This document shows positions 33,072-44,982 of a DNA stretch of 64,000 bases, piece by piece. The stretch is from an uncultured beta proteobacterium (GTDB taxonomy: Bacteria > Pseudomonadota > Gammaproteobacteria > Burkholderiales > Casimicrobiaceae), in assembly GCA_963829415.1 (NCBI GenBank), contig CAWHII010000004.1, positions 238,783 through 302,782 on the forward strand, in the 5' to 3' direction. Numbering within the stretch: the first letter of the stretch is position 1; each line of letters opens with the position of its first letter. The notes under the pieces were generated by a model. The model was not told where the DNA came from. It did no database searches and saw only the letters and a program-made list of their open reading frames with translations. Position numbers and translations under genes: made by a program.

Positions 33072-33740
33072 TCAGCCGATGTTCTGGCGCAGAAATGCAA
33101 GCGTGCGCTCGCGCGCCAGCCTGGCCGCCGGGGCGTCGAATGCGCCACGCTGGTCGCAATTGAAGCCGTGATCGGCCGGATAGAGGAACACCCGCGCGGA
33201 CGGATGTGCGGCAGCCAGCGCCTTCACGCCGGCCGCGGGGATATTCGCGTCGCGCTCGCCGAAGTGCGCCATGACCGGGCAGGTCGGCTGTTCCGCAATG
33301 GCATCGGTCATGCCGCCACCATAATACGGTACGGCACACGCAAAGCCCGGGAGGCGCGCAGCGGCGAGCCAGGCCAGGTATCCACCCCAGCAATAGCCGA
33401 TGACGCCGACCTTGCCAGTGCTCGCCACGCAGTCACGGGCAGCCGCCAGGTCGAGCAGCGCCGCGTCCGTCTTCGCGAGCCCCTTCAATTCCCGGCCGCG
33501 GGCAACGTCCGCTGGCGTATAGCCCAAGTCCACGTCGCGTTCATAGCGGTCGAAGAGCGCCGGTGCGACAGCTTCATATCCGTCGGCGGCAAAGCCGTCG
33601 CAGACGCTGCGGATATGGCTGTTGACGCCGAATATTTCCTGCGCGACGACGAGCGCGCCGCGCGGTGAACCCGCGGGCTTCGCACGATACGCCGAGAACC
33701 GGAAGCCGTCGGCTGCCGTCAGTTCAATCCACTCGCCCAT
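33072..33740 (-). CDS. Dienelactone hydrolase family protein
   Basis: QEIFGVN, GYCWGG nucleophile, HFGERD, HGFNCD. Confidence 0.93.
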   Translation of the reverse strand: MGEWIELTAADGFRFSAYRAKPAGSPRGALVVAQEIFGVNSHIRSVCDGFAADGYEAVAPALFDRYERDVDLGYTPADVARGRELKGLAKTDAALLDLAAARDCVASTGKVGVIGYCWGGYLAWLAAARLPGFACAVPYYGGGMTDAIAEQPTCPVMAHFGERDANIPAAGVKALAAAHPSARVFLYPADHGFNCDQRGAFDAPAARLARERTLAFLRQNIG

Positions 33741-33755
33741 GCCCGTACGGTCTTT

Positions 33756-34685
33756 TCAGGTGAAGAATATCCAGTAGAACAATCCGATCACAATGAGCCA
33801 CTTCAGCGCGTAATACAGCCCCCGGAAGCGGTGCTTGAGCGCCTTGCCGGGAACGCGCAGGTAATAGACCAGGCTGAAGAGGCGGTTGAGCCAGCCGACG
33901 TGGTCGCCGGCGATGTTCTCCGTCTGGCTCGCGCTGATGAACGTGTTCTTGTACCACTTGTTGATGCGGGTCATCACCCGGTTGGTCAGCGGCCTTTCGA
34001 CGTCGCAGAAGAAGATGACGCGCATCTGGTCGGTCTTGTTCTCGGCCCAGTGGAGGAACGTTTCGTCGAACATCACGGCCTCGCCGTCGCGCCAGTGGTA
34101 GGGGTGCCCATCGACGAAGATGTGGCAATCCTCCGAGTTCGGCGTCGAAAGGCCCAGGTGGTAGCGCAGCGAACCTGCAAAGGGATCGCGATGCTTGCCC
34201 AGCTTGCCGCCTGGCGGCAGCAACGCGAACATCGCGCCGTTGATCGCCGGGATGGACTGGACCAGTGCCACGGTCCTGGGACACAACGCCTGCGCCGAAG
34301 GCAACGGCTGGTCGTACCACTTGACGTAGAAGCGCTTCCAGCCGCGCCGGAAGAACGAGTTGAATCCGAGATCGTTGAACTTCGCCGTCCCCCGGATGTA
34401 CCCCTCGTCGAACAGCTGCAACGCTTCGTCGCGGAGCATCTGCCAGTTGTCGGTCACCGGTTTGAGATCGGGAAAGCGGTCGACGTCGATGAAAGGCCGG
34501 TTGGGCACTGCGGAGAAGAAATACATGAGCGCGTTGTACGGCGCCATGAACGTCGAATGGTCGGTGATCTGACGGTAGAACCGGATCCGGACGCTACCGC
34601 GGAAATGCACGAACAGGGCCGAGGCGAGGAACGCGTAGAGGATCGCCGCCTTCCAGTTGAGTAACATGTCGAGCATGGTCGCCAT
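33756..34685 (-). CDS. lpxO: LpxO-type lipid A 2-hydroxylase (Asp/Asn beta-hydroxylase family)
   Basis: HFRGSVR..RQITDHSTFMAPYN, FNSFF..GWKRFYVKWY, HRDPFAGSLRYHLGL, FDETFLH; terminal TM helices; start 34667-34685. Confidence 0.9.
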   Translation of the reverse strand: MATMLDMLLNWKAAILYAFLASALFVHFRGSVRIRFYRQITDHSTFMAPYNALMYFFSAVPNRPFIDVDRFPDLKPVTDNWQMLRDEALQLFDEGYIRGTAKFNDLGFNSFFRRGWKRFYVKWYDQPLPSAQALCPRTVALVQSIPAINGAMFALLPPGGKLGKHRDPFAGSLRYHLGLSTPNSEDCHIFVDGHPYHWRDGEAVMFDETFLHWAENKTDQMRVIFFCDVERPLTNRVMTRINKWYKNTFISASQTENIAGDHVGWLNRLFSLVYYLRVPGKALKHRFRGLYYALKWLIVIGLFYWIFFT

Positions 34686-34686
34686 G

Positions 34687-35928
34687 TTACGGCATCGCGG
34701 ACTTGCGCGGCTTGCGGGCCACGGATTTCCAGCGCCGATGCACCCAGTACCACTGCTCGGGACGCCGCAGGATGGCCCTTTCCAGAACGGCGTTGTATGC
34801 ACGCGTATTGAGGCGGATGGCCTCGCCCGTCTTTTCGCATTCGATGGGCGACATGGGCTCCTCGAAGCGCAGCACATGGTGTCCGTCGGGTTCGCGCCAA
34901 CTGGTCGCCGGCAGCACCGGCGCGCCGGTGGCAAGCGCGATGATCGCGAGGCTCTTGAACGTCCACGCGGGGTGGCCGAAAAAGTCGACCTCAATGCCAT
35001 CCGGCGGGCGCGCATGCTGATCGAAGGGGAACACGATCGCGTCCCCGGCACCCAGTCTATCAAGCATCGCATCGAGCGAGCCGCGCTTGGGGAAGACACC
35101 AAATCCGGCTTCGTTGAACCGCCGTGTGACGAGCGCATCGAGCCACTTGGGCTTGATCGCGCGCCGCACGAAATGGAACCTGCCGCGCATCTGCGGATAG
35201 TGGTTGAGGCCCGCGATGGTCGACACTTCCCAGTTGCCGAAGTGGCCGGTGAGAATGAGAACGCCCTTGTTCTGGCCCAGCGCGCTGGCAAAGGCGTCGA
35301 CATTCTCGATGCGCACCATGGCCATCTTCCGTTCGTGCGACAGCCAGCGGAACTTCAGGAACTCCACGAACAGCCGCCACAGATGCCCGTAATGCGCCTG
35401 TGCCAGCTGCACGATCTCGTCTTCGCCGATCCGTTCGCCGTAGACGAGGCGAAGGTTGTCGAGCATCACCTGTCGCCTTATCGGCAGGAACCGGAACAGG
35501 AATTTGCCGGCCCACGGCACCGCGATTGCGTCGTGTTCGGCCACCGCTACAGCCGACGCGCTCCCGCGATCATGCGAAAGCGAAATACCGATAGCCTTGA
35601 TGCGATAGCGCGCGAGCAGCGCCGCGGCGGCCGACCCGCACACCAGATTCGGCGCTCCATAGTCGTCGCGCGCCACCGAGAATTCGGCGGCCTCGATCTG
35701 ACCTAGCGCCGTTTCGCGCGGGAAGAGCTTCAGGCAGGCTTCCTTGGCCGCAAAACGAGCCGCGAGACTGGCCGAGCGGCCGGGACCGTCTCCGCTGTCC
35801 ATCAGCTCCTGCGGCGAAAAAAGTCTGGCGAGATCGGCCGCCGGCGTTTCCCGCAGCAGGCGCTCGATGCGCGAAATTTCCACGGTATCAATGCCGCAGC
35901 GACGGCTGGCGCCTGCAGGAACCGTCAT
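34687..35928 (-). CDS. Fusion of AcpS-type phosphopantetheinyl transferase and LpxL/HtrB-family acyltransferase
   Basis: N-terminal GIDTVEISRI..AARFAAKEACLK..ISLSHD; C-terminal NLRLVYG..LILTGHFGNWE..FPFDQH..RRPEQWYWVHRRWK; single open frame. Confidence 0.88.
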   Translation of the reverse strand: MTVPAGASRRCGIDTVEISRIERLLRETPAADLARLFSPQELMDSGDGPGRSASLAARFAAKEACLKLFPRETALGQIEAAEFSVARDDYGAPNLVCGSAAAALLARYRIKAIGISLSHDRGSASAVAVAEHDAIAVPWAGKFLFRFLPIRRQVMLDNLRLVYGERIGEDEIVQLAQAHYGHLWRLFVEFLKFRWLSHERKMAMVRIENVDAFASALGQNKGVLILTGHFGNWEVSTIAGLNHYPQMRGRFHFVRRAIKPKWLDALVTRRFNEAGFGVFPKRGSLDAMLDRLGAGDAIVFPFDQHARPPDGIEVDFFGHPAWTFKSLAIIALATGAPVLPATSWREPDGHHVLRFEEPMSPIECEKTGEAIRLNTRAYNAVLERAILRRPEQWYWVHRRWKSVARKPRKSAMP

Positions 35929-35940
35929 GGCCCCGCCGGC

Positions 35941-35976
35941 CTCCGTTGGCACCCCAGTTGGCACCTCAGTTGGCAC
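35941..35976. repeat. Three tandem 12-bp imperfect repeats
   Basis: CTCCGTTGGCAC / CCCAGTTGGCAC / CTCAGTTGGCAC. Confidence 0.8.
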
Positions 35977-35979
35977 ATC

Positions 35980-37254
35980 TCACGCGGCACGCACAAGCAG
36001 CGCCGCGTCGGTGCCGCCGAATCCCCGGCACAGGACCAATGCGATCTTGCTGCGCGGTGCCTGCGGCGATGTGGATACCGAAACGCCGGCACAGTCCGGA
36101 TCGAGTTCCCGGAGCGTTGCCACGCCAGGCACGACGCCCTCGGCCAGCGCCACGAGCGCCAGTGTCGCCTCGAGAATTCCGGCTGCGGCGATCAGGTGCC
36201 CGAACGACCACTTGAACGCGGTCACGGGCGGCACGTCTGCCCCGAACACGGTCCGGATCGCAGCGGCTTCGGACGCGTCCGACGGCCTCGTGCCGTTGCC
36301 ATGCGCGACGATCATCCCGACATCGGCTGCATGGATCTTCGCATCGTCCAGCGCGGCCGCGATGGCCCGCGCAAGCCCGTCGCCGTCGTCGCGGATTGCG
36401 AGCAGGCCGGTCGCCTCCGAGACCTGGCCGCCACCCAGCACTTCACCCAGCACTTTCGCATTGCGCGCTGCGGCGGACGCCTCCAGCTCCATCACCAGCG
36501 CGCCCGCGCCTTCGCCGAAGACGCTGCCGTCACGCGTGACGTCGAAGGGGCGCAACGTCTGCGACGCAATCAATCCGAGGCGATAGTAGTACAGCACCAT
36601 CTGCGGCTCGATCGGCGCATCGTGACCCACGGCAACGACGCGGTCCGCTTCGCCATTGCGCAGTGCCTCCATGCCCTCGATCACCGCCAGCGAGCCGCTG
36701 CAGCTGTGACTGGTAATGCACGCGTTGCTGCCTTTCAGTCCGTATTTGATGCCGATGTGCCCGAGCACGTTGTTGGGCAGCGAGCGCAGCAGCCACATCG
36801 GATTCACGGTGTTGGCCAGCTCCCGCCCGAATTCCGGCATGCTGCCGTTGGCCGTGGCCAGCAGCGGGAAATAATCGTACTGATTCTCGAAATTGCCGCT
36901 GCCCGAGCCGACGTAGACGCCCGTGCGGTCGCTGAATGTCGCGGCGGCATCGGCCGCCAGCGATTCGCGATGTGAGACCAGGCCTGCGGCTTCGATCGCG
37001 CGGCCGGCAGCATAAAGCCCGAAGAGGTCCGTGCGCCGGATCAGCTTGTGCAGCTTGCGATCGTCGACCATTTCGCGTGCGTTGAAATTGGCGACCTCGC
37101 CGGCCATCCGCGTCGGCCACAGCGCCGCGTCCCATTGCTGAATCGGTGCGATCGACGACGTGCCGGCCCGCGCCGCGGCGAAGATGTCGCCCGGGCTCTT
37201 GCCGCCCGAACACACGGCACCGGTGGCCGTGATCACGATGCGCGGCGCGCTCAA
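35980..37254 (-). CDS. Beta-ketoacyl synthase-like protein with Ser at the catalytic Cys position
   Basis: RIVITATGAV, GSNACITSHSCSG in place of G.....TACxSG, AHGNGT and GHLIAAAG retained; TTG start at 37254 inferred. Confidence 0.85.
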   Translation of the reverse strand: MSAPRIVITATGAVCSGGKSPGDIFAAARAGTSSIAPIQQWDAALWPTRMAGEVANFNAREMVDDRKLHKLIRRTDLFGLYAAGRAIEAAGLVSHRESLAADAAATFSDRTGVYVGSGSGNFENQYDYFPLLATANGSMPEFGRELANTVNPMWLLRSLPNNVLGHIGIKYGLKGSNACITSHSCSGSLAVIEGMEALRNGEADRVVAVGHDAPIEPQMVLYYYRLGLIASQTLRPFDVTRDGSVFGEGAGALVMELEASAAARNAKVLGEVLGGGQVSEATGLLAIRDDGDGLARAIAAALDDAKIHAADVGMIVAHGNGTRPSDASEAAAIRTVFGADVPPVTAFKWSFGHLIAAAGILEATLALVALAEGVVPGVATLRELDPDCAGVSVSTSPQAPRSKIALVLCRGFGGTDAALLVRAA

Positions 37255-37258
37255 CGGA

Positions 37259-37445
37259 CCCCCACGCTTGCGGCCACCGAAAATGAGGCCGCCGCGCTGC
37301 CCCCGGCGGGGGAGTAATTCCGTGCGGCCTCCTTTGGGTCGCGGGAACTCCGAAGCGATCCCGTTTCGGCCACCGCCCGCACTCGCGGCCGCGCGCTGCG
37401 CGCCTGGGCTTCGCCCCGCTCGTGCAGGTGTCCTCGGGACGGCCC
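37259..37445 (-). repeat. REP-like GC-rich palindromic intergenic element
   Basis: Minus strand begins GGGCCGTCCC, contains hairpin CCCCCGCCGGGGG-CAGCG (37300-37312), ends GCGTGGGGG just before the TTG start. Confidence 0.45.
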
Positions 37446-37453
37446 TGCCGCGC

Positions 37454-38770
37454 TCACGTCGACTCGCTTTCCACGGCGGCGTCCGTTTCTTCCGGATTGC
37501 GCAGCACAATGCAGCTGTTGGAACCGCCGAAACCGAACGAATTGGACATGGTCATGCGCACGCGCTGGCGTCGCGGCGTGTCGCGCACGAAATTGAGATC
37601 GCAGTCGGGATCGACTTCGCGCAGGTTCGCGTTGATCGGCATCATGCCGTCGCGAATCGCCAGCGCGCAGATCGCGACCTCGACCGCACCTGCCGCCGCG
37701 ATCAGGTGTCCCATCGTGCTCTTGGTCGAGCTGACCGAGAGTGCCGCGACGCGCGGGCCGAAGACCGCTTTCACCGCGGCGCTCTCGCTGCGATCGTTCA
37801 TGCCGGTGGACGTGCCGTGCGCGTTCAGGTAATCGATATCGGCAGGTGTTGCGCCCGCGCTCCACAAGGCCTGCCGCATCGCCTGGATCGGACCGTCGCC
37901 GTCCGGCGGCGAATCGGTGATGCGATAACTGGACAGCGAATTGCCGTCGCCCGCCAGCTCGGCGTAGATGCGTGCGCCGCGCTTGCGCGCCGCATGCCAT
38001 TCCTCGAGCACCAGGAATCCCGCGCCTTCCCCCAGCAGGAAGCCGTTGCGCGTCACGTCGAACGGGCGGCTCGCGCGCTGCGGCGCGGCGTTGTCCGGCG
38101 ACAACGCCGACAGCAGGCAAAAGCCGCTGATGCCGACAGGACTGATCATCGAATCGAACCCGCCGGCGAGAACATGGTCGACTGCGCCGCGACGGATCAA
38201 TTTCATCGCGGTGCCCAGCGCCTGGCCACCGGATGCACAGGCGGTGTGCACCGCGGACGCATAACCACGTATGCCGTGACGGCGCGTGATGAGCGACAAA
38301 CCCGCTGCGCAGTTGCTGCGGCAAAATGCCACAGGGTCGTTGGCCGGACCGTCTGTCAGCAGCAGGTCCGAATGGAGGACGCCGTCCGCGGCCGAATGCG
38401 TTTGCGTCCCGGCGAGGTCCGCGAAGTCCACGCCCATCATGCCTGCACCAAGAGTGCATCCCCAGCGCGTCGCATCGGCTTCCGTCGGGCGAATGCCGGC
38501 ATCGCGCAGCGCCTGTTCCGCGGCAGCGAGCGCAAAGCGATGGGAACGATTGGTGAGCTTGAGCAGCTTTCGGTCTCCGATCTGCGCGACTTCGTCGAAA
38601 CCCTTCACCTCCGCCGCGATGTGCACCGGAAAGCCGCTGGCGTCGAACACGGTGATCTGTGCCCCGCCACTTCTGCCATGGAGGACCGCATCCCACGTCG
38701 TGGCGACGTCGTTGCCGACGGGTGTCACCAGCCCCAACCCCGTTATCGCAACTCGTTTGCGCGCGGTCAT
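37454..38770 (-). CDS. fabF: Beta-ketoacyl-ACP synthase II (FabF-like), intact Cys-His-His triad
   Basis: RVAITGLGLVTPVGN, HTACASG, NAHGTST, STKSTMGHLIAAAG, SNSFGFGG. Confidence 0.92.
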   Translation of the reverse strand: MTARKRVAITGLGLVTPVGNDVATTWDAVLHGRSGGAQITVFDASGFPVHIAAEVKGFDEVAQIGDRKLLKLTNRSHRFALAAAEQALRDAGIRPTEADATRWGCTLGAGMMGVDFADLAGTQTHSAADGVLHSDLLLTDGPANDPVAFCRSNCAAGLSLITRRHGIRGYASAVHTACASGGQALGTAMKLIRRGAVDHVLAGGFDSMISPVGISGFCLLSALSPDNAAPQRASRPFDVTRNGFLLGEGAGFLVLEEWHAARKRGARIYAELAGDGNSLSSYRITDSPPDGDGPIQAMRQALWSAGATPADIDYLNAHGTSTGMNDRSESAAVKAVFGPRVAALSVSSTKSTMGHLIAAAGAVEVAICALAIRDGMMPINANLREVDPDCDLNFVRDTPRRQRVRMTMSNSFGFGGSNSCIVLRNPEETDAAVESEST

Positions 38771-38774
38771 GGCA

Positions 38775-39626
38775 TCAGGGAGCTGGCTTGAGAAACTCGA
38801 CCCGCGCCGTGGCAATGGTCTTGCCGTTGCGGTCGCGCGCGCTCAGGGAAATCCGCGTCGTGCCATCCTGCGTGCCCGCGAATTCCGCACGGCTATCGAC
38901 CTCCTGGCCCGGCAGGATGAATGCGCGCATCTTCACGTGGGTCATGCGCACCGGCACAGGATCCGGCCCTTCCTGCCCGGCGTTTGCCTCGCGCGCAAGT
39001 TGCGTGGCCAATGCGATCTGCGCATTGAGCAGGAGCGTAGCCGGAAACACCGGGCGGCGCGGGAAATGGTCGGCAAAGAATGGGGTTGATGCGGGAACGT
39101 GCAGCGTTGACCGCACCAATTTTCCCGGAATGTGCTCGACAGTTTCGACGGCAGGTTCGGCAACGCCATGGAAACGATCGACTGGCGCGCCTGCTCCCCG
39201 CAACAACGCAAAGCGCTGCTGCAAGAGTTCAGGCGCGTCGAAATCGGCCACGGGCAGCATGGGGCCCAGGCAGTCGTTCAATTCGATCACCGCCCTCCCG
39301 TTCACCGAGGCTTCGCCGCGATAGGACACGGCGTCATCGTCGACTTCGTCAATGACAACCGAAAGGTGAATGTCGTCGCCCGGCGCCACGTCGCCCAGGA
39401 AGCGTGTCTCGCCGGCGAGTGCGGCGACCGGCCGTCCACGGTAACCGATATATTCCATCGAGACCCAGGCTGCAAGCTGGCCGACCGCTTCCGCGACGAG
39501 GCACGCCGGAAACACGCGAATCGCGGCTGGCACGTGAAAAATGCCGCGCGCGCTCGTTCCTGGCGTGAATTCCGTGATGCGGTCGACAAAGGAAAACGCG
39601 GCGAAATGGTCGATTGGGTCAGCCAT
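38775..39626 (-). CDS. Tandem (double hot-dog) FabZ-like dehydratase
   Basis: Domain 1 FSFVDRI..FPACLVAEAVGQ; domain 2 FFADHFPRRPVFPATLLLNAQ. Confidence 0.82.
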   Translation of the reverse strand: MADPIDHFAAFSFVDRITEFTPGTSARGIFHVPAAIRVFPACLVAEAVGQLAAWVSMEYIGYRGRPVAALAGETRFLGDVAPGDDIHLSVVIDEVDDDAVSYRGEASVNGRAVIELNDCLGPMLPVADFDAPELLQQRFALLRGAGAPVDRFHGVAEPAVETVEHIPGKLVRSTLHVPASTPFFADHFPRRPVFPATLLLNAQIALATQLAREANAGQEGPDPVPVRMTHVKMRAFILPGQEVDSRAEFAGTQDGTTRISLSARDRNGKTIATARVEFLKPAP

Positions 39627-39641: not shown

Positions 39642-40067
39642 TCAGCCCGCCGCGCGGGCTTCGTGCTGCGCCTGGACTACAAGCTTGCAAAAGGTTTCCG
39701 GCGTGAACAGGCGCGGAATGTCCTTGACCTTCATCGGATCGGCGAAGCGTTCGGCGGGGATTTCCGACAGGTACGAGCGCAGTTGCGAAAGTCCGGTCGC
39801 GGACAGTACGCCCTTCTGCTCGAACTCGGCTTCGGTCAGGCTGCCGCGCGCGTTGTCGATGATCTTGCCGCGCGGAATCTTGATCTTGAACGCACGCTCC
39901 AGGCGGAACACCATGTCGAGGAAGTCGATCGACTCGGCGTCCAGCCCTTCGATCAGCGACACGTCGAGCTTGATGTCGGCGACATCGCAACCCAGCGCAT
40001 CGGCCATCGTTTCCGCCACGGTCGGGAACACCGCGTTGATCTCGTCCTTGGTGATTTCTTTTGCCAT
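39642..40067 (-). CDS. Elongated acyl carrier protein (141 aa)
   Basis: LDAESIDFLDMVFRLERAFKIKI with phosphopantetheine Ser, then a ~55 aa insertion before the terminal TPETFCKLV helix. Confidence 0.88.
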   Translation of the reverse strand: MAKEITKDEINAVFPTVAETMADALGCDVADIKLDVSLIEGLDAESIDFLDMVFRLERAFKIKIPRGKIIDNARGSLTEAEFEQKGVLSATGLSQLRSYLSEIPAERFADPMKVKDIPRLFTPETFCKLVVQAQHEARAAG

Positions 40068-40074
40068 CGTTGCC

Positions 40075-40833
40075 TCACTCCATTTTGAAGCCGCCATCGA
40101 TATTGATGATCTGGCCGGTGACATAATCGGCAAAGCGCGAGGCCAGGAACCATACCGCGTAGGCCACTTCCTCGGGCTTGCCATACCGCTTGAGCAGGAT
40201 GCGCGCCTTGACGGCATCGCCCGCCAGCTCGCGCACTTCCTGCGACATTTCCGTTTCGATCACGCCAGGCGCGACCGCGTTGACCGTGATCTTCCGCGGC
40301 GCGAGTTCGACGGCCAGCGAGCGGGTGAAGGCGTTGATCGCGCCTTTGCTTGCCGCGTAGTTGGTCTGGCCGCGACCGCCCTTCTCACCTGCCACCGAGC
40401 TCAGGTTGATGATCTTGCCGCCGCGCTGCACGATCATGTGCGGCGCCACCGCGCGCACGACGTTGAACACCCCGCCGACGTTCGTGTCCAGCACGACTTG
40501 CACGTCGTCGTCGTCCATCGCCGCCAGTTGGTTGTCGCGAATCATCCCGGCGTTGTTGACGAGTATGTCGATCCGGCCGCAGCGCTCGGCGACGCGATCC
40601 ACCGCCGCTGCGCACGCGCGGGAGTCGCGGATGTCCACCTGTTCCATGGCGACCTTCCCCCCGCTCGCCGTGCCCGCGGCAGCGACCTCTGCCGCCGCCG
40701 CCGCGTTGTCGCGATAGAAAAACGTCACGTCGACGCCTTCCCCGGCCAGCAACAGGACAATGGCACGGCCGATGCCGCGGCTGCCGCCGGTCACGATCGC
40801 CACTTTGCCCGAGAGACCTGGGTCCATCGTCAT
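40075..40833 (-). CDS. fabG: 3-oxoacyl-ACP reductase (FabG-like)
   Basis: TGGSRGIG, NNAG, GQTNYAASKGA, VNAVAPGVIETEM. Confidence 0.9.
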   Translation of the reverse strand: MTMDPGLSGKVAIVTGGSRGIGRAIVLLLAGEGVDVTFFYRDNAAAAAEVAAAGTASGGKVAMEQVDIRDSRACAAAVDRVAERCGRIDILVNNAGMIRDNQLAAMDDDDVQVVLDTNVGGVFNVVRAVAPHMIVQRGGKIINLSSVAGEKGGRGQTNYAASKGAINAFTRSLAVELAPRKITVNAVAPGVIETEMSQEVRELAGDAVKARILLKRYGKPEEVAYAVWFLASRFADYVTGQIINIDGGFKME

Positions 40834-40840
40834 CCCGGCA

Positions 40841-41596
40841 TCAGCCCGAAATCGCGAAACCGCCATCGACGACCAGCGTGTGGCCGTTGATCATGCCGGC
40901 TTCGGGCAGGCACAGGAGGAATACGGCGCCCGCGACATCCTGCGGGGTCAGCACCGGACCCGCGGGCGTGCGCTGCGAAAAATTGGCAAGCAATTCCTCG
41001 CGGTTGGGAAAGTACTGCAGCGCGTCGGTGTCGACCACGCCCGCGCTCACTGTATTCACGCGGATGCCGCGAGGCCCCAACTCCTGCGCCAGCGCGCGCA
41101 CCAGCGCCTCGAGCGCGGCCTTGGACGCGCCGATGAAGCCGTAGCCGGGCATCGCGCGCTGCGCACCCAGGCTCGACAACGCAATGATGCGCGCGCCGGG
41201 AGGCATGAGCGGCAAGCCCCGTTGCGTAAGGAGATTCAGGGCCAGCGCGTTGGTCTCCATGCACCAGCGCCAGTGCTTCAGTGTCATGTCGACCGTGGGT
41301 TTGAGCACACCACTGGCTGCATTGCTGACCAGAATGTCGAGCCGATCGAAATGCTTGCCGAATTCGGTGAAGATCTCATCGACGCTGTCCGGAATGCCGA
41401 CGCTCCCGGCGATGGCGCAGGCACGCCGGCCCAGCGCGCGCATCTCCTTGCACAACGCTTCCGCTTCGTCGGCGCTGTTGTAATAGTTGACGGCAACGTC
41501 GCAACCTTCGCGGGCGAGCTTCAACGCAATTGCGCGCCCGATACCGCGGGCCGCGCCGCTGACGAGCGCCACTTTGCCGGTCAATGCGCCTGCCAT
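40841..41596 (-). CDS. fabL: Enoyl-ACP reductase, FabL type
   Basis: NAASGVLKP, SSLGAQR, YGFIGASKAALE, GVVDTDALQYFPNREELL, closely matching Bacillus FabL motifs as recalled. Confidence 0.8.
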   Translation of the reverse strand: MAGALTGKVALVSGAARGIGRAIALKLAREGCDVAVNYYNSADEAEALCKEMRALGRRACAIAGSVGIPDSVDEIFTEFGKHFDRLDILVSNAASGVLKPTVDMTLKHWRWCMETNALALNLLTQRGLPLMPPGARIIALSSLGAQRAMPGYGFIGASKAALEALVRALAQELGPRGIRVNTVSAGVVDTDALQYFPNREELLANFSQRTPAGPVLTPQDVAGAVFLLCLPEAGMINGHTLVVDGGFAISG

Positions 41597-41664: not shown

Positions 41665-42990
41665 CTATTCTACCGTGCCCACCCCTGCCGACTGGCCCAA
41701 GGTCGTCAGGCATTGTCGAAGGTCGGCCGCTATCTTATCAACCGTCCCATCCTCGAACGCCCCGGTACGGTAGGAGATGCCGGCTTCCAGCGCGCCCCCG
41801 GCCGTGGTCACGGCAACCACCATGGGCGCCAGGGGCCCGGTCGACACGCCGCGCACATACGCGGGCGCTGGGCCGTACGCGCCGCCCTCCTGCCAAAGCG
41901 CATCGACGTTGAGCATGGTGACGCCGACCCAGACCGGCCAGTTCTTGACGTGAAAGCGCTGTCTTTGTTCCAGACCCAGGAAGCGCCACACGATGCCGCT
42001 GTAGAACATCACGACCAGCGTCTGGAGGTATAGCCGACGTCTTTTCCATTCCGCGGACTGCACATGGATGTCCTGCGCCAGCTCACGCAACCCCACTCCT
42101 TCAGGAACCCGGTGCGCGACCCGGAAGGAACTCAGGAACTGTCCAAACCACGCGCGCGCATCGGCCCCGACGTCGTTGCGGATGTTGATGATCGACGCTG
42201 CGGCCAGGTAGACGCGTCGCCGCGCCGTCAGCCTCTTTTCGGCCAGCGGAGAGAGTGTCTGGAGCATGACCGCGATGATCAGGTCGTTGAGCGTCACATT
42301 CCACGCCTTCGCCGTACGCAGTACCGCGGCGAATTCGGATGGGCCAAGCCGCACGGACGTGAAGCCGTTGGTCGGGTCGGGCCAGCGCAGGTATCGCGGG
42401 CGATGCGAGTGCCGGCAATTCAATGCCAGACGGGGCAGGCTCGGCAAACCGCGCAGCACCGCGCCCGCGTGGCGCCACAGCAGGCGCCGGAACGTGTCCG
42501 GGTATAGACCGGGCACAGCCTGCGGCGGCGGCGCGCTCCCATTGGCCGCATATCGGGCGACGATCGCCTGGAGCAGCAGCGCGATCGAGTCGCCGCCCGC
42601 GACGAAATGATCGTAAGCGAGGGCAAACTCGAACGTCGCTCCCGCGTCGACCGCGAAAAATCGGAAGGGATCGATGGCCCCGTCGGCGGGAAACGGGTTG
42701 TTCAGCTGGCGTTCGATTTCCGCGCGCAGGACACCCCGCGGATCCGCACCGCCGGGCAGGACCGGCAGCGCAAAGCGTGCCTCGCCTCCGGCATATTCGT
42801 AGCGGCCGCGCACAGCGTCCAGCGTGAGGTGGGTGAGGCCGCGTGCCTCGAGCTCGCCCCTGATCGCGGCGCCGAGACGCACGGCATCGAGGGGCGCGGC
42901 GACATGGACCGCATGCACCGCGCTGTACGGATGCAACTCGCGCCAGCGCAGCATGGTCACCTGGAACAGGTTCAGCGTGCCCCGCATCAT
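41665..42990 (-). CDS. Condensation-domain/PapA5-like CoA-dependent acyltransferase-fold protein with altered motif
   Basis: YDHFVAGGDS at the HHxxxDG position, WNVTLNDLIIA, INIRN, GQFLSSF; ATGA overlap with upstream gene. Confidence 0.68.
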   Translation of the reverse strand: MMRGTLNLFQVTMLRWRELHPYSAVHAVHVAAPLDAVRLGAAIRGELEARGLTHLTLDAVRGRYEYAGGEARFALPVLPGGADPRGVLRAEIERQLNNPFPADGAIDPFRFFAVDAGATFEFALAYDHFVAGGDSIALLLQAIVARYAANGSAPPPQAVPGLYPDTFRRLLWRHAGAVLRGLPSLPRLALNCRHSHRPRYLRWPDPTNGFTSVRLGPSEFAAVLRTAKAWNVTLNDLIIAVMLQTLSPLAEKRLTARRRVYLAAASIINIRNDVGADARAWFGQFLSSFRVAHRVPEGVGLRELAQDIHVQSAEWKRRRLYLQTLVVMFYSGIVWRFLGLEQRQRFHVKNWPVWVGVTMLNVDALWQEGGAYGPAPAYVRGVSTGPLAPMVVAVTTAGGALEAGISYRTGAFEDGTVDKIAADLRQCLTTLGQSAGVGTVE

Positions 42991-43999
42991 TGACTTTCCG
43001 GAGTCCGCAGCACTTGCTGCGCCGATTGGCACCAATGCTGTTTCACGCTGTACCAGATGTCGGCAGCGTGCAACAGGTTGGTGGTGTCGACCCCGGCCGC
43101 GTCAGGCAGCGCCACGGCGGCGTCCGGCGACCAGGAGTCGATCCACTTGCGCGTGACTTCGTTGGTCGCGAGGTTCAGGGTGTCCGGGATGCGGATGTGG
43201 CCGGTGACGGCAGGCAAGGTGACATTGCGCACGCGTGCCGTACCGATGGCCACGTACGGCTCGGGGTCGCCGAACGTTCCCGCAATGGGGTCCCAGGGTA
43301 TCGAAAATCCGGTGAAGTCTTCGGCAGTATCCGGAATCCTGCGCAACTTCGCGATCATGTCCCATTGACCCAGAAATATTCGCGGCAGCTTGCCTGTCGC
43401 CATGGCTGTTGCATAGCCGACGGTGAGACCCTTGACCGGGCGCGTGGCGCCGGTGCGCGGATCGCGAATCGTCGTGCGCGCCAGGGCGTCGCCCGCGAGC
43501 GGATTCCAGACCGGAATGGTCTCGTGGAAAGCCCCGTTCAACTCGTACAGGATACGGATCGCCATCATTCCGCCCTGGCTATGGCCGATCAGCATCGGCA
43601 TCATGCCTTCGGATTCGTAATACCACGCCAGCATTCCCGCCCACTTGAGGCTGTCGCCGAAACTTCCCTGCGACAAACTGCCGTCGCGGGGATCGCGGAT
43701 CTGCTGCTCCGGATAACCCATGGCGATCAGGAAGTGGGCGAACGGCTCCATGGTCACCACGGCGAGGCTGCCCTGGAACAGGATGATCCGCGGTGCCGGA
43801 CCCGGCGCCAGCAGCCGGGCCACGTCGGCGGAACCGACGTGCCGGCAATCGAGCGCGAGAAGGCTGCGGATGCCTGCAGCGTCCAGCTCGTGTGCAGGTT
43901 GCAATGGCGGATCGTCCGCAGCCGACGCACCGCCGGCGACAGGCAAGTCAACAGCGCGCAGAGTAGCGAACCGAGCAGCGCACGGCGCGGGAGTGACAT
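42987..43999 (-). CDS. Secreted alpha/beta hydrolase; signal peptide separated by an apparent 1-nt deletion near 43930
   Basis: ATG 43999 gives MSLPRRALLGSLLCALLTCLSPA, which joins GASA-ADDPP in the main frame; GHSQGG nucleophile. Confidence 0.72.
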
Positions 44000-44079
44000 C
44001 GAAGGGCGTTGCCGGAATCGGATCGGGATCCTCCTTCGTGCATTGTCGCAACGGGTAGAAGGGCTCCTACTGACTACCG

Positions 44080-44694
44080 TCAAGATATGCGGGGAAAGAA
44101 CCTTCCGGTCCGTTGCACGTAGCGGGAATAGTCGTCGGGTTGCGTTTGCAGCAGATGTCGCTCCTCGTTGCGCGCTTTCACGTTCATCAACGCGATGTGC
44201 GCCAATGCAACCGTTACCATCGGCAGCGTCGGCACCACGACCACGGTACAGATCATGAGCAGTATCTGAAAGGCGTAGATCGGGTGGCGGATGCGGCGGA
44301 ACGGCCCGTCGGTGATGAGATTGGTCTTCTCGTCGACGGCCACCGCCATCCGCCAATCCTTGCCCATGCGCGCCCAGCATCGCGCCGTAGCGATCAGGCA
44401 GAGCACCGCGACGATCGCGGCCAGCCAGCGGCATGCGCCGTAGACGGGCATCTGAGACGCAAATGCCGGTATCGCCAGCGGTAGGCGGGTTCCCGTTTGG
44501 GCGAGCCATGGCAGGATGATCCAGAGAGCGACCACCGGGACGAAGATCGCCCCCATGAAGCGTTCCAACGGCTGCTTCGGCGACAGAATGGGTATGTCGC
44601 GGGAATGCCGTTTCACCCGGACGATCATCATTCCGACTCCGAACCAATAGGCACAGATCGTTGCGGTAATGATGGCGGCAGGCAGATCGTTCAT
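44080..44694 (-). CDS. Isoprenylcysteine carboxyl methyltransferase / PEMT-family membrane methyltransferase
   Basis: TM helices, LITDGPFRRIRHPIY, EERHL, RFFP. Confidence 0.88.
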   Translation of the reverse strand: MNDLPAAIITATICAYWFGVGMMIVRVKRHSRDIPILSPKQPLERFMGAIFVPVVALWIILPWLAQTGTRLPLAIPAFASQMPVYGACRWLAAIVAVLCLIATARCWARMGKDWRMAVAVDEKTNLITDGPFRRIRHPIYAFQILLMICTVVVVPTLPMVTVALAHIALMNVKARNEERHLLQTQPDDYSRYVQRTGRFFPRIS

Positions 44695-44982
44695 GGCTTG
44701 GTCGCAACTGGTTTGGCGGCAATGTCGCGGGTGCGGTTCCTTGAAGGGTACGACAGGGTGCGGCCGAAGGGCAATGTTGCGCCGCCAGCGCAACTGTGTC
44801 ATGCGCCGGTCCCTTGCCGCCCTCTCGCACCGAGGTTCGCCGGGAGGGCATTGGGCCTGCCGCCAACGCCCAATTTTCCGGGATCCCAAGCGCAAGGCGC
44901 AGGCAGTAGAATTGTCGCGCCATGTCCTCGCCCGTCCTCTCCGACGTCGCGCAATCAGCCAACGAATCCGGCGGCGCCCGCG

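What the first reader, a model, noticed from the sequence alone, without database searches (positions are those of the whole stretch)
34687..35928. AcpS-LpxL fusion: ACP activation and acyl off-loading in one polypeptide
Seen: a ~130-aa AcpS domain (GID, FAAKEA, SLSH) runs in frame through HDAIAVPW into a complete LpxL/HtrB domain (GHFGNWE). There is no stop, no obvious internal start, and both domains have full-length boundaries. Established: AcpS is normally a soluble trimer and LpxL a monotopic membrane enzyme. Inference: the fusion membrane-tethers the PPTase and dedicates both steps to the cluster's unusual ACP.
Basis: partly seen in the sequence, partly recalled or inferred. Interest (0 to 1): 0.7.

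Follow-up and report, generated by a model that had tools for sequence, protein, structure and literature searches.

The report
AcpS–LpxL-type acyltransferase fusion enzyme
One real, widely conserved gene joins the enzyme that switches on a private acyl carrier protein to the enzyme that probably unloads that carrier's fatty acid onto an outer-membrane lipid. It closes a portable seven-gene fatty-acid cassette whose product nobody has identified.

Summary
ORF 34687-35928 (minus strand, 413 aa) carries an AcpS-type phosphopantetheinyl transferase domain (residues 11-131) and an LpxL/PatA-fold acyltransferase domain (residues 141-401). It is not an assembly artefact. The same architecture occurs in at least 560 species-level genomes of Betaproteobacteria, Verrucomicrobiota, NC10, Binatia and others. 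It always ends the cassette FabL-FabG-ACP-double-hotdog DH-KS-KS(Cys>Ser). The junction has no indel in 38 sequences, and the catalytic residues of both domains are invariant.

- The acyltransferase half lacks the canonical N-terminal membrane anchor and no transmembrane helix is present, so any membrane tethering is peripheral.
- The LpxO neighbour is lineage-specific.

The "dedicated PPTase" idea is supported. Five of five carriers from other phyla also keep a normal AcpS, and a same-genus genome lacks both the fusion and AcpS.

The nearest unfused relatives are Legionella LPLATs, sitting in an operon that appears to match L. pneumophila lpg0358-0363/WaaM. The acceptor is untested; lipid A is the best guess. 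No paper describes the fusion. This scan has flagged and followed it up several times before on other DNA. It is a new variant of known kinds, of moderate interest.

The parts
34687..35928 (-). AcpS-LPLAT fusion ORF (413 aa from ATG 35928; stop 34687-34689)
   Evidence: AF2 pLDDT 89.7, pTM 0.85
35536..35898 (-). AcpS-type (group I) phosphopantetheinyl transferase domain, residues 11-131; D14, K62, E63, K67, H119 invariant
   Evidence: PF01648 38.1 bits, TIGR00556 55.3 bits; Foldseek AcpS 3qmn/5vcb TMt about 0.8; invariants
35509..35535 (-). Fixed-length junction, residues 132-140 (HDAIAVPWA); no indel in 38 sequences; P138 nearly invariant
34726..35508 (-). LpxL/PatA-fold lysophospholipid-acyltransferase (LPLAT) domain, residues 141-401; lacks the canonical N-terminal TM anchor
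   Evidence: PF03279 135.7 bits, profile 42-294; PatA TMt 0.83, LpxM TMt 0.67; hydropathy
35227..35244 (-). HX4E catalytic motif H229-F-G-N-W-E234 (TGHFGNxE, invariant apart from the x position)
33756..34685 (-). LpxO-like Fe/2-oxoglutarate acyl 2-hydroxylase; ATG lies 1 nt after the fusion's TAA
   Evidence: PF05118; NF033391 LpxO 438 bits (cut-off 500); present only in some betaproteobacterial loci
35980..37260 (-).
37454..38770 (-). KS1, FabF-type ketosynthase
38775..39626 (-). Double-hotdog dehydratase (FabA/FabZ-like; the Legionella counterpart also hits the ApeI-like family)
39642..40067 (-). Cassette ACP, about 140 aa, with DAESID serine motif and a conserved basic C-terminal extension
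   Evidence: PF00550; sub-threshold on all ACP equivalogs; tail shared with the Legionella ACP
40075..40866 (-). FabG-type ketoreductase
40841..41596 (-). FabL-type enoyl-ACP reductase (over equivalog cut-off)
   Evidence: NF005975 334.8 bits, cut-off 328
41665..42987 (-). Stand-alone condensation-fold protein (HxxxGG); its start overlaps the upstream stop
   Evidence: AF2 pLDDT 92, pTM 0.92; Foldseek NRPS C/Cy domains TM about 0.7
42987..44051 (-). Conserved protein with no Pfam, NCBIfam or PDB sequence match; often duplicated in relatives
44080..44900 (-). ICMT/PEMT-like membrane methyltransferase (start uncertain)

Best explanation
The gene encodes a bifunctional, 'self-priming' terminal enzyme of an accessory, horizontally mobile type II fatty-acid-synthase cassette.

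Shown:
- It is a genuine single polypeptide, conserved across phyla.
- It has an intact AcpS fold with the Mg-binding Asp/Glu and Lys, and an intact LpxL/PatA-fold acyltransferase with the HX4E dyad.
- The two halves are joined by a fixed nine-residue junction.
- It always sits at the 3' end of FabL-FabG-ACP(~140 aa)-DH-KS-KS.

Inferred:
- The N-terminal domain, as a trimer like all AcpS enzymes, transfers 4'-phosphopantetheine from CoA to the cassette's divergent ACP.
- The cassette then builds a saturated, probably long, acyl chain on that ACP.
- The C-terminal domain has no transmembrane anchor and would sit peripherally on the inner membrane through the aromatic/basic helix right after the junction (WAGKFLFRFLPIRR). 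It would move the finished chain from the ACP to a hydroxyl of a membrane glycolipid.
- The best guess for the acceptor is lipid A, as a secondary acyl chain. This rests on analogy with rhizobial AcpXL/LpxXL and the Legionella WaaM operon.
- In this window the translationally coupled LpxO-like enzyme would then 2-hydroxylate the chain.

Sub-claim odds:
- fusion real, with both sites intact by sequence: about 0.9-0.95
- PPTase dedicated to the cassette ACP: about 0.7
- acceptor is lipid A: about 0.5
For: - Two domains over the Pfam cut-offs.
- All 120 best clusters are two-domain.
- At least 560 species genomes encode a relative.
- Synteny is invariant in about 70 loci.
- Catalytic residues are invariant and the junction is gap-free.
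- The AF2 model is confident, with pTM 0.85. It matches PatA, LpxM and AcpS structures.
- The genome has a canonical AcpP and a HetI/Sfp-type PPTase elsewhere.
- Five of five carriers from other phyla also have a canonical AcpS.
- Same-genus genome G056 lacks the fusion and AcpS and has only the Sfp type.
- The unfused sister clade contains the Legionella LPLATs, in the operon SDR-137-aa ACP-DH-KS-KS-LPLAT. In L. pneumophila the apparently matching genes, lpg0359 and lpg0361-0363, are annotated as an ACP, two KS and WaaM, a lipid A acyltransferase (PMC9112007, PMC13200437).
- The gene order ACP-DH-KS-KS-LPLAT equals the rhizobial VLCFA cluster (PMC5613085).
- An LpxO-like gene starts 1 nt after the stop.
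Against: - No biochemical data exist for any member.
- The LPLAT half fails every LpxL/LpxM/LpxP/PatA equivalog cut-off. Its closest solved fold is PatA, which acylates a phosphatidylinositol mannoside from acyl-CoA.
- The LpxO neighbour is absent from most loci.
- The operon also carries a second candidate off-loading enzyme, the condensation-fold protein, so the product may be more complex than acylated lipid A.
- In the window's own family no genome combines a canonical AcpS with the fusion. A housekeeping role there is therefore not excluded.
- Two divergent fused members have degenerate AcpS motifs.
Confidence: 0.6

Rival explanations
1. The same fused enzyme, but the acceptor is not lipid A. 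The LPLAT domain would acylate another membrane glycolipid or lipid (PatA-like or ApeD-like chemistry). It would work together with the condensation-fold protein, the exported unknown proteins and the ICMT-like methyltransferase to build an undescribed envelope lipid.
For: - PatA is the best sequence and fold match.
- There is no TM anchor.
- All LpxL-family equivalog cut-offs are missed.
- A conserved second module, hyp354 plus the C-fold protein, is present in Betaproteobacteria and several Verrucomicrobiota.
- Two other LPLATs next to the Sfp-type PPTase are kept in the family relatives checked, including one ~2-Mb genome. They look like the core late acyltransferases.
Against: - The LpxO-like gene is translationally coupled here.
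- The apparent Legionella counterpart is annotated WaaM (PMC9112007).
- The gene order parallels acpXL/lpxXL (PMC5613085).
- All carriers seen are from lineages generally regarded as diderm (own knowledge; LPS genes were not checked).
Confidence: 0.3
2. In the window's lineage the fused AcpS domain is the cell's housekeeping holo-ACP synthase. It would have replaced a lost stand-alone acpS rather than being a dedicated enzyme.
For: Among 61 genomes of the family, 16 have a canonical AcpS and none of these has the fusion. Thirty-four have a hit of the fusion's score class and none of these has a canonical AcpS. G058 shows the fusion as its only PF01648 match.
Against: - Five of five carriers in other phyla keep a canonical AcpS as well.
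- G056 (same genus, 98% complete) and G054 have neither the fusion nor AcpS, only an Sfp-type PPTase.
- The eight ~2-Mb genomes of genus g8 show only weak sub-threshold AcpS-model hits with Sfp-type coverage.
- The pattern follows genera, so it may reflect one or two events.
- From own knowledge, Sfp-type enzymes can serve AcpP, as PcpS does in Pseudomonas aeruginosa.
Confidence: 0.1
3. The AcpS-like half no longer acts mainly as a PPTase. It would serve as a trimerisation or ACP-docking module that presents acyl-ACP to the acyltransferase.
For: - Fused members P0127 and P0129 have lost the GxD N-terminus or changed KEA to KRA.
- Legionella orthologues work without the domain.
- The rigid, indel-free junction suggests a fixed inter-domain geometry.
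Against: D14, K62, E63, K67 and H119 are invariant in 38 sequences down to 44% identity. A pure docking role would not require this.
Confidence: 0.1
4. Artefact: two separate genes joined by a sequencing or assembly indel.
For: None was found.
Against: The same in-frame architecture with a gap-free junction occurs in hundreds of independent assemblies from several phyla.
Confidence: 0.01

Closest known systems
Legionella operon, apparently lpg0358-lpg0363 of L. pneumophila (SDR, ACP lpg0359, dehydratase, KS lpg0361, KS lpg0362, WaaM lpg0363), seen here in L. israelensis (L087)
   Same: The order is the same: SDR, 137-aa ACP with the same conserved C-terminal extension, double-hotdog DH, KS, KS, LPLAT. 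The LPLAT clade is sister to the fused clade at 41-45% identity and also lacks the N-terminal anchor region.
   Different: The Legionella LPLAT is unfused (284 aa, no AcpS domain). The operon has no FabL and has a PAP2 gene upstream. Its lipid product is also not established. Orthology of L087 to the lpg numbers is inferred from gene order only (PMC9112007, PMC13200437).
Rhizobial VLCFA-lipid A cluster acpXL-fabZXL-fabF1XL/fabF2XL-(adhA2XL)-lpxXL
   Same: A private ACP, DH, two KS and an LpxL-family transferase sit in the same order. The logic of a special acyl chain built on a dedicated ACP and handed to a dedicated transferase is the same (PMC5613085).
   Different: The ACP is about 140 aa, not about 92 aa, and is below the NF005079 cut-off. 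The cassette brings its own FabG, FabL and PPTase. The LPLAT is below the NF005120 cut-off and has no TM anchor. It works like this cluster, but membership is not shown.
PatA, phosphatidylinositol-mannoside acyltransferase of Mycobacterium (PDB 5f2t, 5oce)
   Same: It is the best sequence and fold match of the C-terminal half (E 2.5e-12; TMt 0.83). It has the same HxGNW(D/E) motif. From own knowledge, it is a peripheral enzyme without a TM helix.
   Different: PatA uses acyl-CoA and a PIM acceptor. NF005919 scores 76 bits against a cut-off of 209. PatA has no PPTase domain.
AcpS (group I PPTase) and the integrated PPT domain of fungal type I FAS alpha subunit (PDB 3qmn, 5vcb, 2wat)
   Same: The N-terminal half has the AcpS fold and catalytic residues. 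Fungal FAS sets a precedent for an AcpS-type PPTase fused to the synthase whose ACP it primes.
   Different: Here the partner is a stand-alone acyltransferase, not a megasynthase. The domain scores below the acpS equivalog cut-off (TIGR00516 46-49 bits against 59.8).

Membership tests
AcpS / group I 4'-phosphopantetheinyl transferase | Domain of about 120-130 aa matching PF01648/TIGR00556 over the cut-off | tested here: met
   PF01648 38.1 bits (cut-off 25); TIGR00556 55.3 bits (cut-off 45.35)
AcpS / group I 4'-phosphopantetheinyl transferase | Mg-binding Asp (GxD) and Glu plus Lys in the (F/W)xxKEAxxK motif | tested here: met
   D14, K62, E63 and K67 are invariant in 38 sequences
AcpS / group I 4'-phosphopantetheinyl transferase | AcpS alpha/beta fold | tested here: met
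   Foldseek 3qmn, 5vcb and 2jbz, TMt 0.78-0.85
AcpS / group I 4'-phosphopantetheinyl transferase | Equivalog-level score as housekeeping acpS (TIGR00516) | tested here: not met
   46-49 bits against a cut-off of 59.8
AcpS / group I 4'-phosphopantetheinyl transferase | Homotrimer with inter-subunit active sites; CoA-dependent modification of apo-ACP | not testable with these tools
   Only a monomer model was possible; no assay is available
LpxL/LpxM/LpxP late lipid A acyltransferases | PF03279 domain with the HX4(D/E) dyad | tested here: met
   135.7 bits; H229/E234 invariant
LpxL/LpxM/LpxP late lipid A acyltransferases | N-terminal transmembrane anchor (profile positions about 1-40) | tested here: not met
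   The match starts at profile position 42. The maximum Kyte-Doolittle 19-mer score is 1.44, inside the fold core.
LpxL/LpxM/LpxP late lipid A acyltransferases | Score over a curated subfamily or equivalog cut-off | tested here: not met
   TIGR02207 77.7 against 297.8; NF006270 133.5 against 248; all others lower
LpxL/LpxM/LpxP late lipid A acyltransferases | Acyl-ACP donor and Kdo2-lipid IVA-type acceptor | not testable with these tools
   Only context is available: a private ACP in the operon and an LpxO-like gene downstream
Rhizobial AcpXL/LpxXL VLCFA system | Clustered ACP-DH-KS-KS-LpxL-family transferase | tested here: met
   compared with PMC5613085
Rhizobial AcpXL/LpxXL VLCFA system | AcpXL-type ACP (about 92 aa). 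NF005079 was taken as its model from memory. | tested here: not met
   36.6 bits against a cut-off of 83; the ACP is about 140 aa with a C-terminal extension
Rhizobial AcpXL/LpxXL VLCFA system | LpxXL orthology | tested here: inconclusive
   NF005120 scores 96 bits against 273. I could not verify that this model represents LpxXL, and no reference LpxXL sequence could be fetched.
Legionella lpg0358-0363-type cassette | SDR, ~137-aa extended ACP, double-hotdog DH, KS, KS and an anchor-less LPLAT in this order | tested here: met
   L087 context; ACP tail conserved; LPLAT sister clade with 94/95 support
PatA (PIM acyltransferase) | Equivalog score NF005919 | tested here: not met
   76 bits against a cut-off of 209; the resemblance is in fold only

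The most novel reading that the evidence does not exclude
The fusion builds a trimeric, membrane-peripheral 'prime-and-unload' hub. The AcpS trimer would both activate the cassette's extended ACP and serve as its docking platform, channelling the finished acyl chain straight into three attached LPLAT active sites. The product would be a so-far undescribed special (for example very-long-chain, 2-hydroxylated) acyl substituent of the outer-membrane lipid. It would be shared by uncultured Burkholderiales, Verrucomicrobiota, NC10 and Binatia, and would be evolutionarily linked to the long-chain lipid A of Legionella.
Probability: 0.2. Interest if true: 0.7.

Novelty: new variant of a known kind. 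Interest (0 to 1): 0.5.

Why it matters
A PPTase fused to the acyltransferase that consumes its carrier's product has not been described in the papers I could search. The gene is nevertheless common: at least 560 species-level genomes across several phyla.

It marks a portable, self-sufficient fatty-acid cassette that probably remodels the outer membrane of abundant uncultured soil and freshwater bacteria. It also gives a handle on the unstudied Legionella operon that appears to be lpg0358-0363.

The protein is a compact test case for two questions. How do private ACPs stay insulated from housekeeping lipid synthesis? Are trimeric AcpS scaffolds used for substrate channelling? The work is feasible with simple in vitro assays.

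Tried and rejected
- Literature searches for the fusion found nothing relevant.
- A Caballeronia megaplasmid hit covering 85% of the query looked like a distant fusion. It is an ordinary LpxL behind a long open frame without AcpS motifs.
- An Agrobacterium plasmid LpxL-like gene is an isolated gene and gave no acpXL context.
- Sequence searches of the two upstream unknown proteins against PDB, Pfam and NCBIfam gave nothing significant. Only the fold prediction resolved hyp456.
- Flanks of the cassette in NC10 and Verrucomicrobiota loci hold unrelated genes, so they give no acceptor clue.
- I considered an aryl-polyene cluster and rejected it. The cassette has an enoyl reductase and none of the ligase, LolA-like or MMPL genes. 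A separate APE-like locus lies on contig C1.
- A single origin of the fusion cannot be asserted. The tree needs at least 3 state changes: fused P0128 sits at the base of the Legionella-type clade and apparently unfused P0126 sits inside the fused clade.

Full report
**Observation**

The minus strand carries one open frame with its stop at 34687-34689. From the ATG at 35928 it encodes 413 aa. GGAGG lies 11 nt upstream of that ATG. A GTG at 35976 would add 16 residues made of a 12-nt tandem repeat.

Pfam finds PF01648 (ACPS) at residues 11-100 and PF03279 (Lip_A_acyltrans) at residues 141-401, both over their cut-offs. NCBIfam AcpS models extend the first domain to residue 131.

One detail is wrong. 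The acyltransferase match starts at profile position 42 of 295. The N-terminal stretch that forms the membrane anchor of canonical LpxL is therefore absent and is replaced by the AcpS domain. A Kyte-Doolittle scan finds no 19-mer above 1.44 in the fusion, and that maximum lies inside the fold core. The neighbouring LpxO-like protein reaches 1.74.

**Is it real?**

- The 120 best 90%-identity clusters in the protein collection all carry both domains.
They are labelled Casimicrobiaceae and other Burkholderiales, Verrucomicrobiota, NC10, Binatia and Margulisiibacteriota, and nearly all are MAGs.
- In 38 sequences down to 44% identity there is no indel between residues about 128 and 150. The invariant residues are D14, K62, E63, K67 and H119 (AcpS half) and T227-G-H-F-G-N-x-E234, D303 and Q304 (LPLAT half) (74-sequence version).

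An indel artefact is excluded by these comparisons.

**Structure**

AlphaFold2 on this alignment gives mean pLDDT 89.7 and pTM 0.85. Foldseek against the PDB matches:
- the C-terminal half to PatA (TMt 0.83) and LpxM (TMt 0.65-0.67);
- the N-terminal half to AcpS structures (TMt about 0.8) and to the PPT domain of fungal type I FAS.

No solved entry covers both halves. Sequence search agrees: PatA 2.5e-12, AcpS 9e-12, LpxM 1.3e-8.

**Context**

The gene closes a minus-strand operon. In order of transcription:
- ICMT-like methyltransferase
- an unknown protein (hyp354)
- an unknown protein (hyp456)
- FabL, over its equivalog cut-off
- FabG
- an ACP of about 140 aa
- a double-hotdog dehydratase
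- a FabF-type KS
- a second KS-like protein
- the fusion
- an LpxO-like hydroxylase, whose ATG is 1 nt after the fusion's TAA
- a dienelactone hydrolase

Across about 70 fetched loci, the block FabL-FabG-ACP-DH-KS-KS-fusion is invariant in every locus that reaches that far. The hyp354/hyp456 pair recurs in Betaproteobacteria and several Verrucomicrobiota. LpxO occurs only in part of the betaproteobacterial loci. In NC10 and Verrucomicrobiota the seven genes are flanked by unrelated or opposite-strand genes, so the block behaves as a self-contained cassette.

hyp456 folds confidently (pLDDT 92, pTM 0.92) as a stand-alone NRPS condensation-type protein. This means a second carrier-dependent transfer enzyme is present in the operon.

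**Dedicated or housekeeping PPTase?**

The window's genome (94% complete) has a canonical AcpP (118.8 bits) besides the divergent cassette ACP (31.7 bits, sub-threshold). It has only two PF01648 matches: the fusion and a HetI/Sfp-type PPTase on contig C2, next to two LPLAT genes and a FAAL-carrier gene.

In 61 genomes of the family the acpS model gives this split:

| Result | Genomes |
|---|---|
| Canonical stand-alone AcpS (86-121 bits); none has the fusion | 16 |
| Only a hit of the fusion's score class (38-58 bits) | 34 |
| Only weak Sfp-type hits (the ~2-Mb genomes of genus g8) | 8 |
| No hit | 3 |

This complementary pattern could suggest that the fusion replaced acpS. The following argues against that:
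- Five of five carriers from other phyla have both a canonical AcpS (71-106 bits) and the fusion.
- G056 (same genus, 98% complete) and G054 lack both the fusion and AcpS, keeping only the Sfp type.
- The split follows genera, so it may reflect very few events.

I therefore read the fused PPTase as an extra enzyme, most simply dedicated to the cassette ACP. A housekeeping role within Casimicrobiaceae keeps about 10%.

**Relatives without the fusion**

An exhaustive HMMER search found full-length unfused LPLATs of about 290 aa at 41-45% identity. These also start at profile position about 41, so they are anchor-less too. They are Legionella/Tatlockia 'lysophospholipid acyltransferase family' proteins.

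In L. israelensis the gene ends the operon PAP2-SDR-137-aa ACP-double-hotdog DH (FabA plus ApeI-like)-KS-KS-LPLAT. Its ACP shares the conserved C-terminal extension with the window's ACP.

Papers confirm that lpg0359 is listed as an ACP, lpg0361 and lpg0362 as KS-like proteins, and lpg0363 as WaaM, 'lipid A biosynthesis acyltransferase' (PMC13200437, PMC9112007). No product is established, and orthology to L087 rests on gene order alone.

A maximum-likelihood tree of 88 LPLAT domains puts 41 fused sequences, plus one apparently unfused fragment-like protein, in one clade. This clade is sister (94/95 support) to the Legionella-type unfused clade, which has one fused member at its base. The tree needs at least three state changes, so I cannot say whether one ancient fusion was followed by loss or whether the fusion arose twice. 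Two divergent fused members have degenerate AcpS motifs.

**Mechanism**

*Shown:* the architecture, the intact catalytic motifs, the conserved geometry and the conserved cassette.

*Inferred:*
- The AcpS half, a trimer like other AcpS enzymes (established knowledge of the family), primes the private ACP.
- KS/KS, FabG, DH and FabL build a saturated chain on that ACP.
- The LPLAT half attaches peripherally through the aromatic/basic helix just after the junction and transfers the chain to a membrane glycolipid.

Lipid A is the best guess for the acceptor, for three reasons:
- the ACP-DH-KS-KS-LPLAT order matches the rhizobial acpXL/lpxXL cluster (PMC5613085);
- the apparent Legionella counterpart is annotated WaaM;
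- an LpxO-like gene is translationally coupled to the fusion here.

This is not a membership claim. Every LpxL/LpxM/LpxP/PatA equivalog cut-off is missed, and the ACP is not AcpXL-like. The closest fold is PatA, and a condensation-fold enzyme is co-encoded. Another acceptor therefore keeps about 30%.

**Novelty**

The architecture is already in public databases under automatic names ('4'-phosphopantetheinyl transferase superfamily protein', 'KDO2-lipid IV(A) lauroyltransferase'). I found no paper on it. This scan has flagged it repeatedly on other DNA, with follow-ups reaching the same reading.

- the anchor-less nature of the LPLAT half;
- the gap-free junction;
- the AcpS-versus-fusion distribution inside and outside the family;
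- the fold of hyp456.

My verdict is a new variant of known kinds, of moderate interest.

Noticed in passing
window 35941-35976 (minus strand): Three tandem 12-nt repeats (GTGCCAACTGAG / GTGCCAACTGGG / GTGCCAACGGAG) fill the KS2-fusion intergenic space. The last one supplies the GGAGG before the ATG. If read from the GTG at 35976 they would encode VPTx repeats.
   Followed up: no
window 41665-42987 (minus strand): hyp456 is a stand-alone NRPS condensation-fold protein (AF2 pLDDT 92; Foldseek TM about 0.7 to Cy/C domains). Its motif is DHFxAGGDS, with the His invariant and the usual Asp replaced by Gly. Its start overlaps the upstream stop.
   Followed up: partly
genome contig C2:942445-945300 (L084): A FAAL-carrier protein end and two tandem LPLAT genes lie next to a divergently oriented HetI/Sfp-type PPTase. 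The PPTase-LPLAT adjacency recurs in family relatives, including one ~2-Mb genome (G008).
   Followed up: partly
genome contig C1:1393523-1397104 (L086): A separate aryl-polyene/xanthomonadin-like locus: an AMP-ligase fused to a hotdog domain, an LPLAT, a possible LolA-like protein and an MMPL-type exporter.
   Followed up: no
family survey: Within the window's bacterial family, canonical AcpS (16 genomes) and the fusion-type AcpS (34 genomes) never co-occur. Eight ~2-Mb genomes show only an Sfp-type PPTase.
   Followed up: partly
window 33072-33740 (minus strand): A dienelactone-hydrolase family gene follows LpxO by 15 nt. Among the fetched loci it is found only in the four closest relatives (L001, L002, L063, L080).
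   Followed up: no
L037:11291-12370 (NC10 locus): A Zn-type alcohol dehydrogenase (ADH_N) lies immediately downstream of the fusion on the opposite strand. It recalls adhA2XL of the rhizobial VLCFA cluster but may be coincidence.
   Followed up: no
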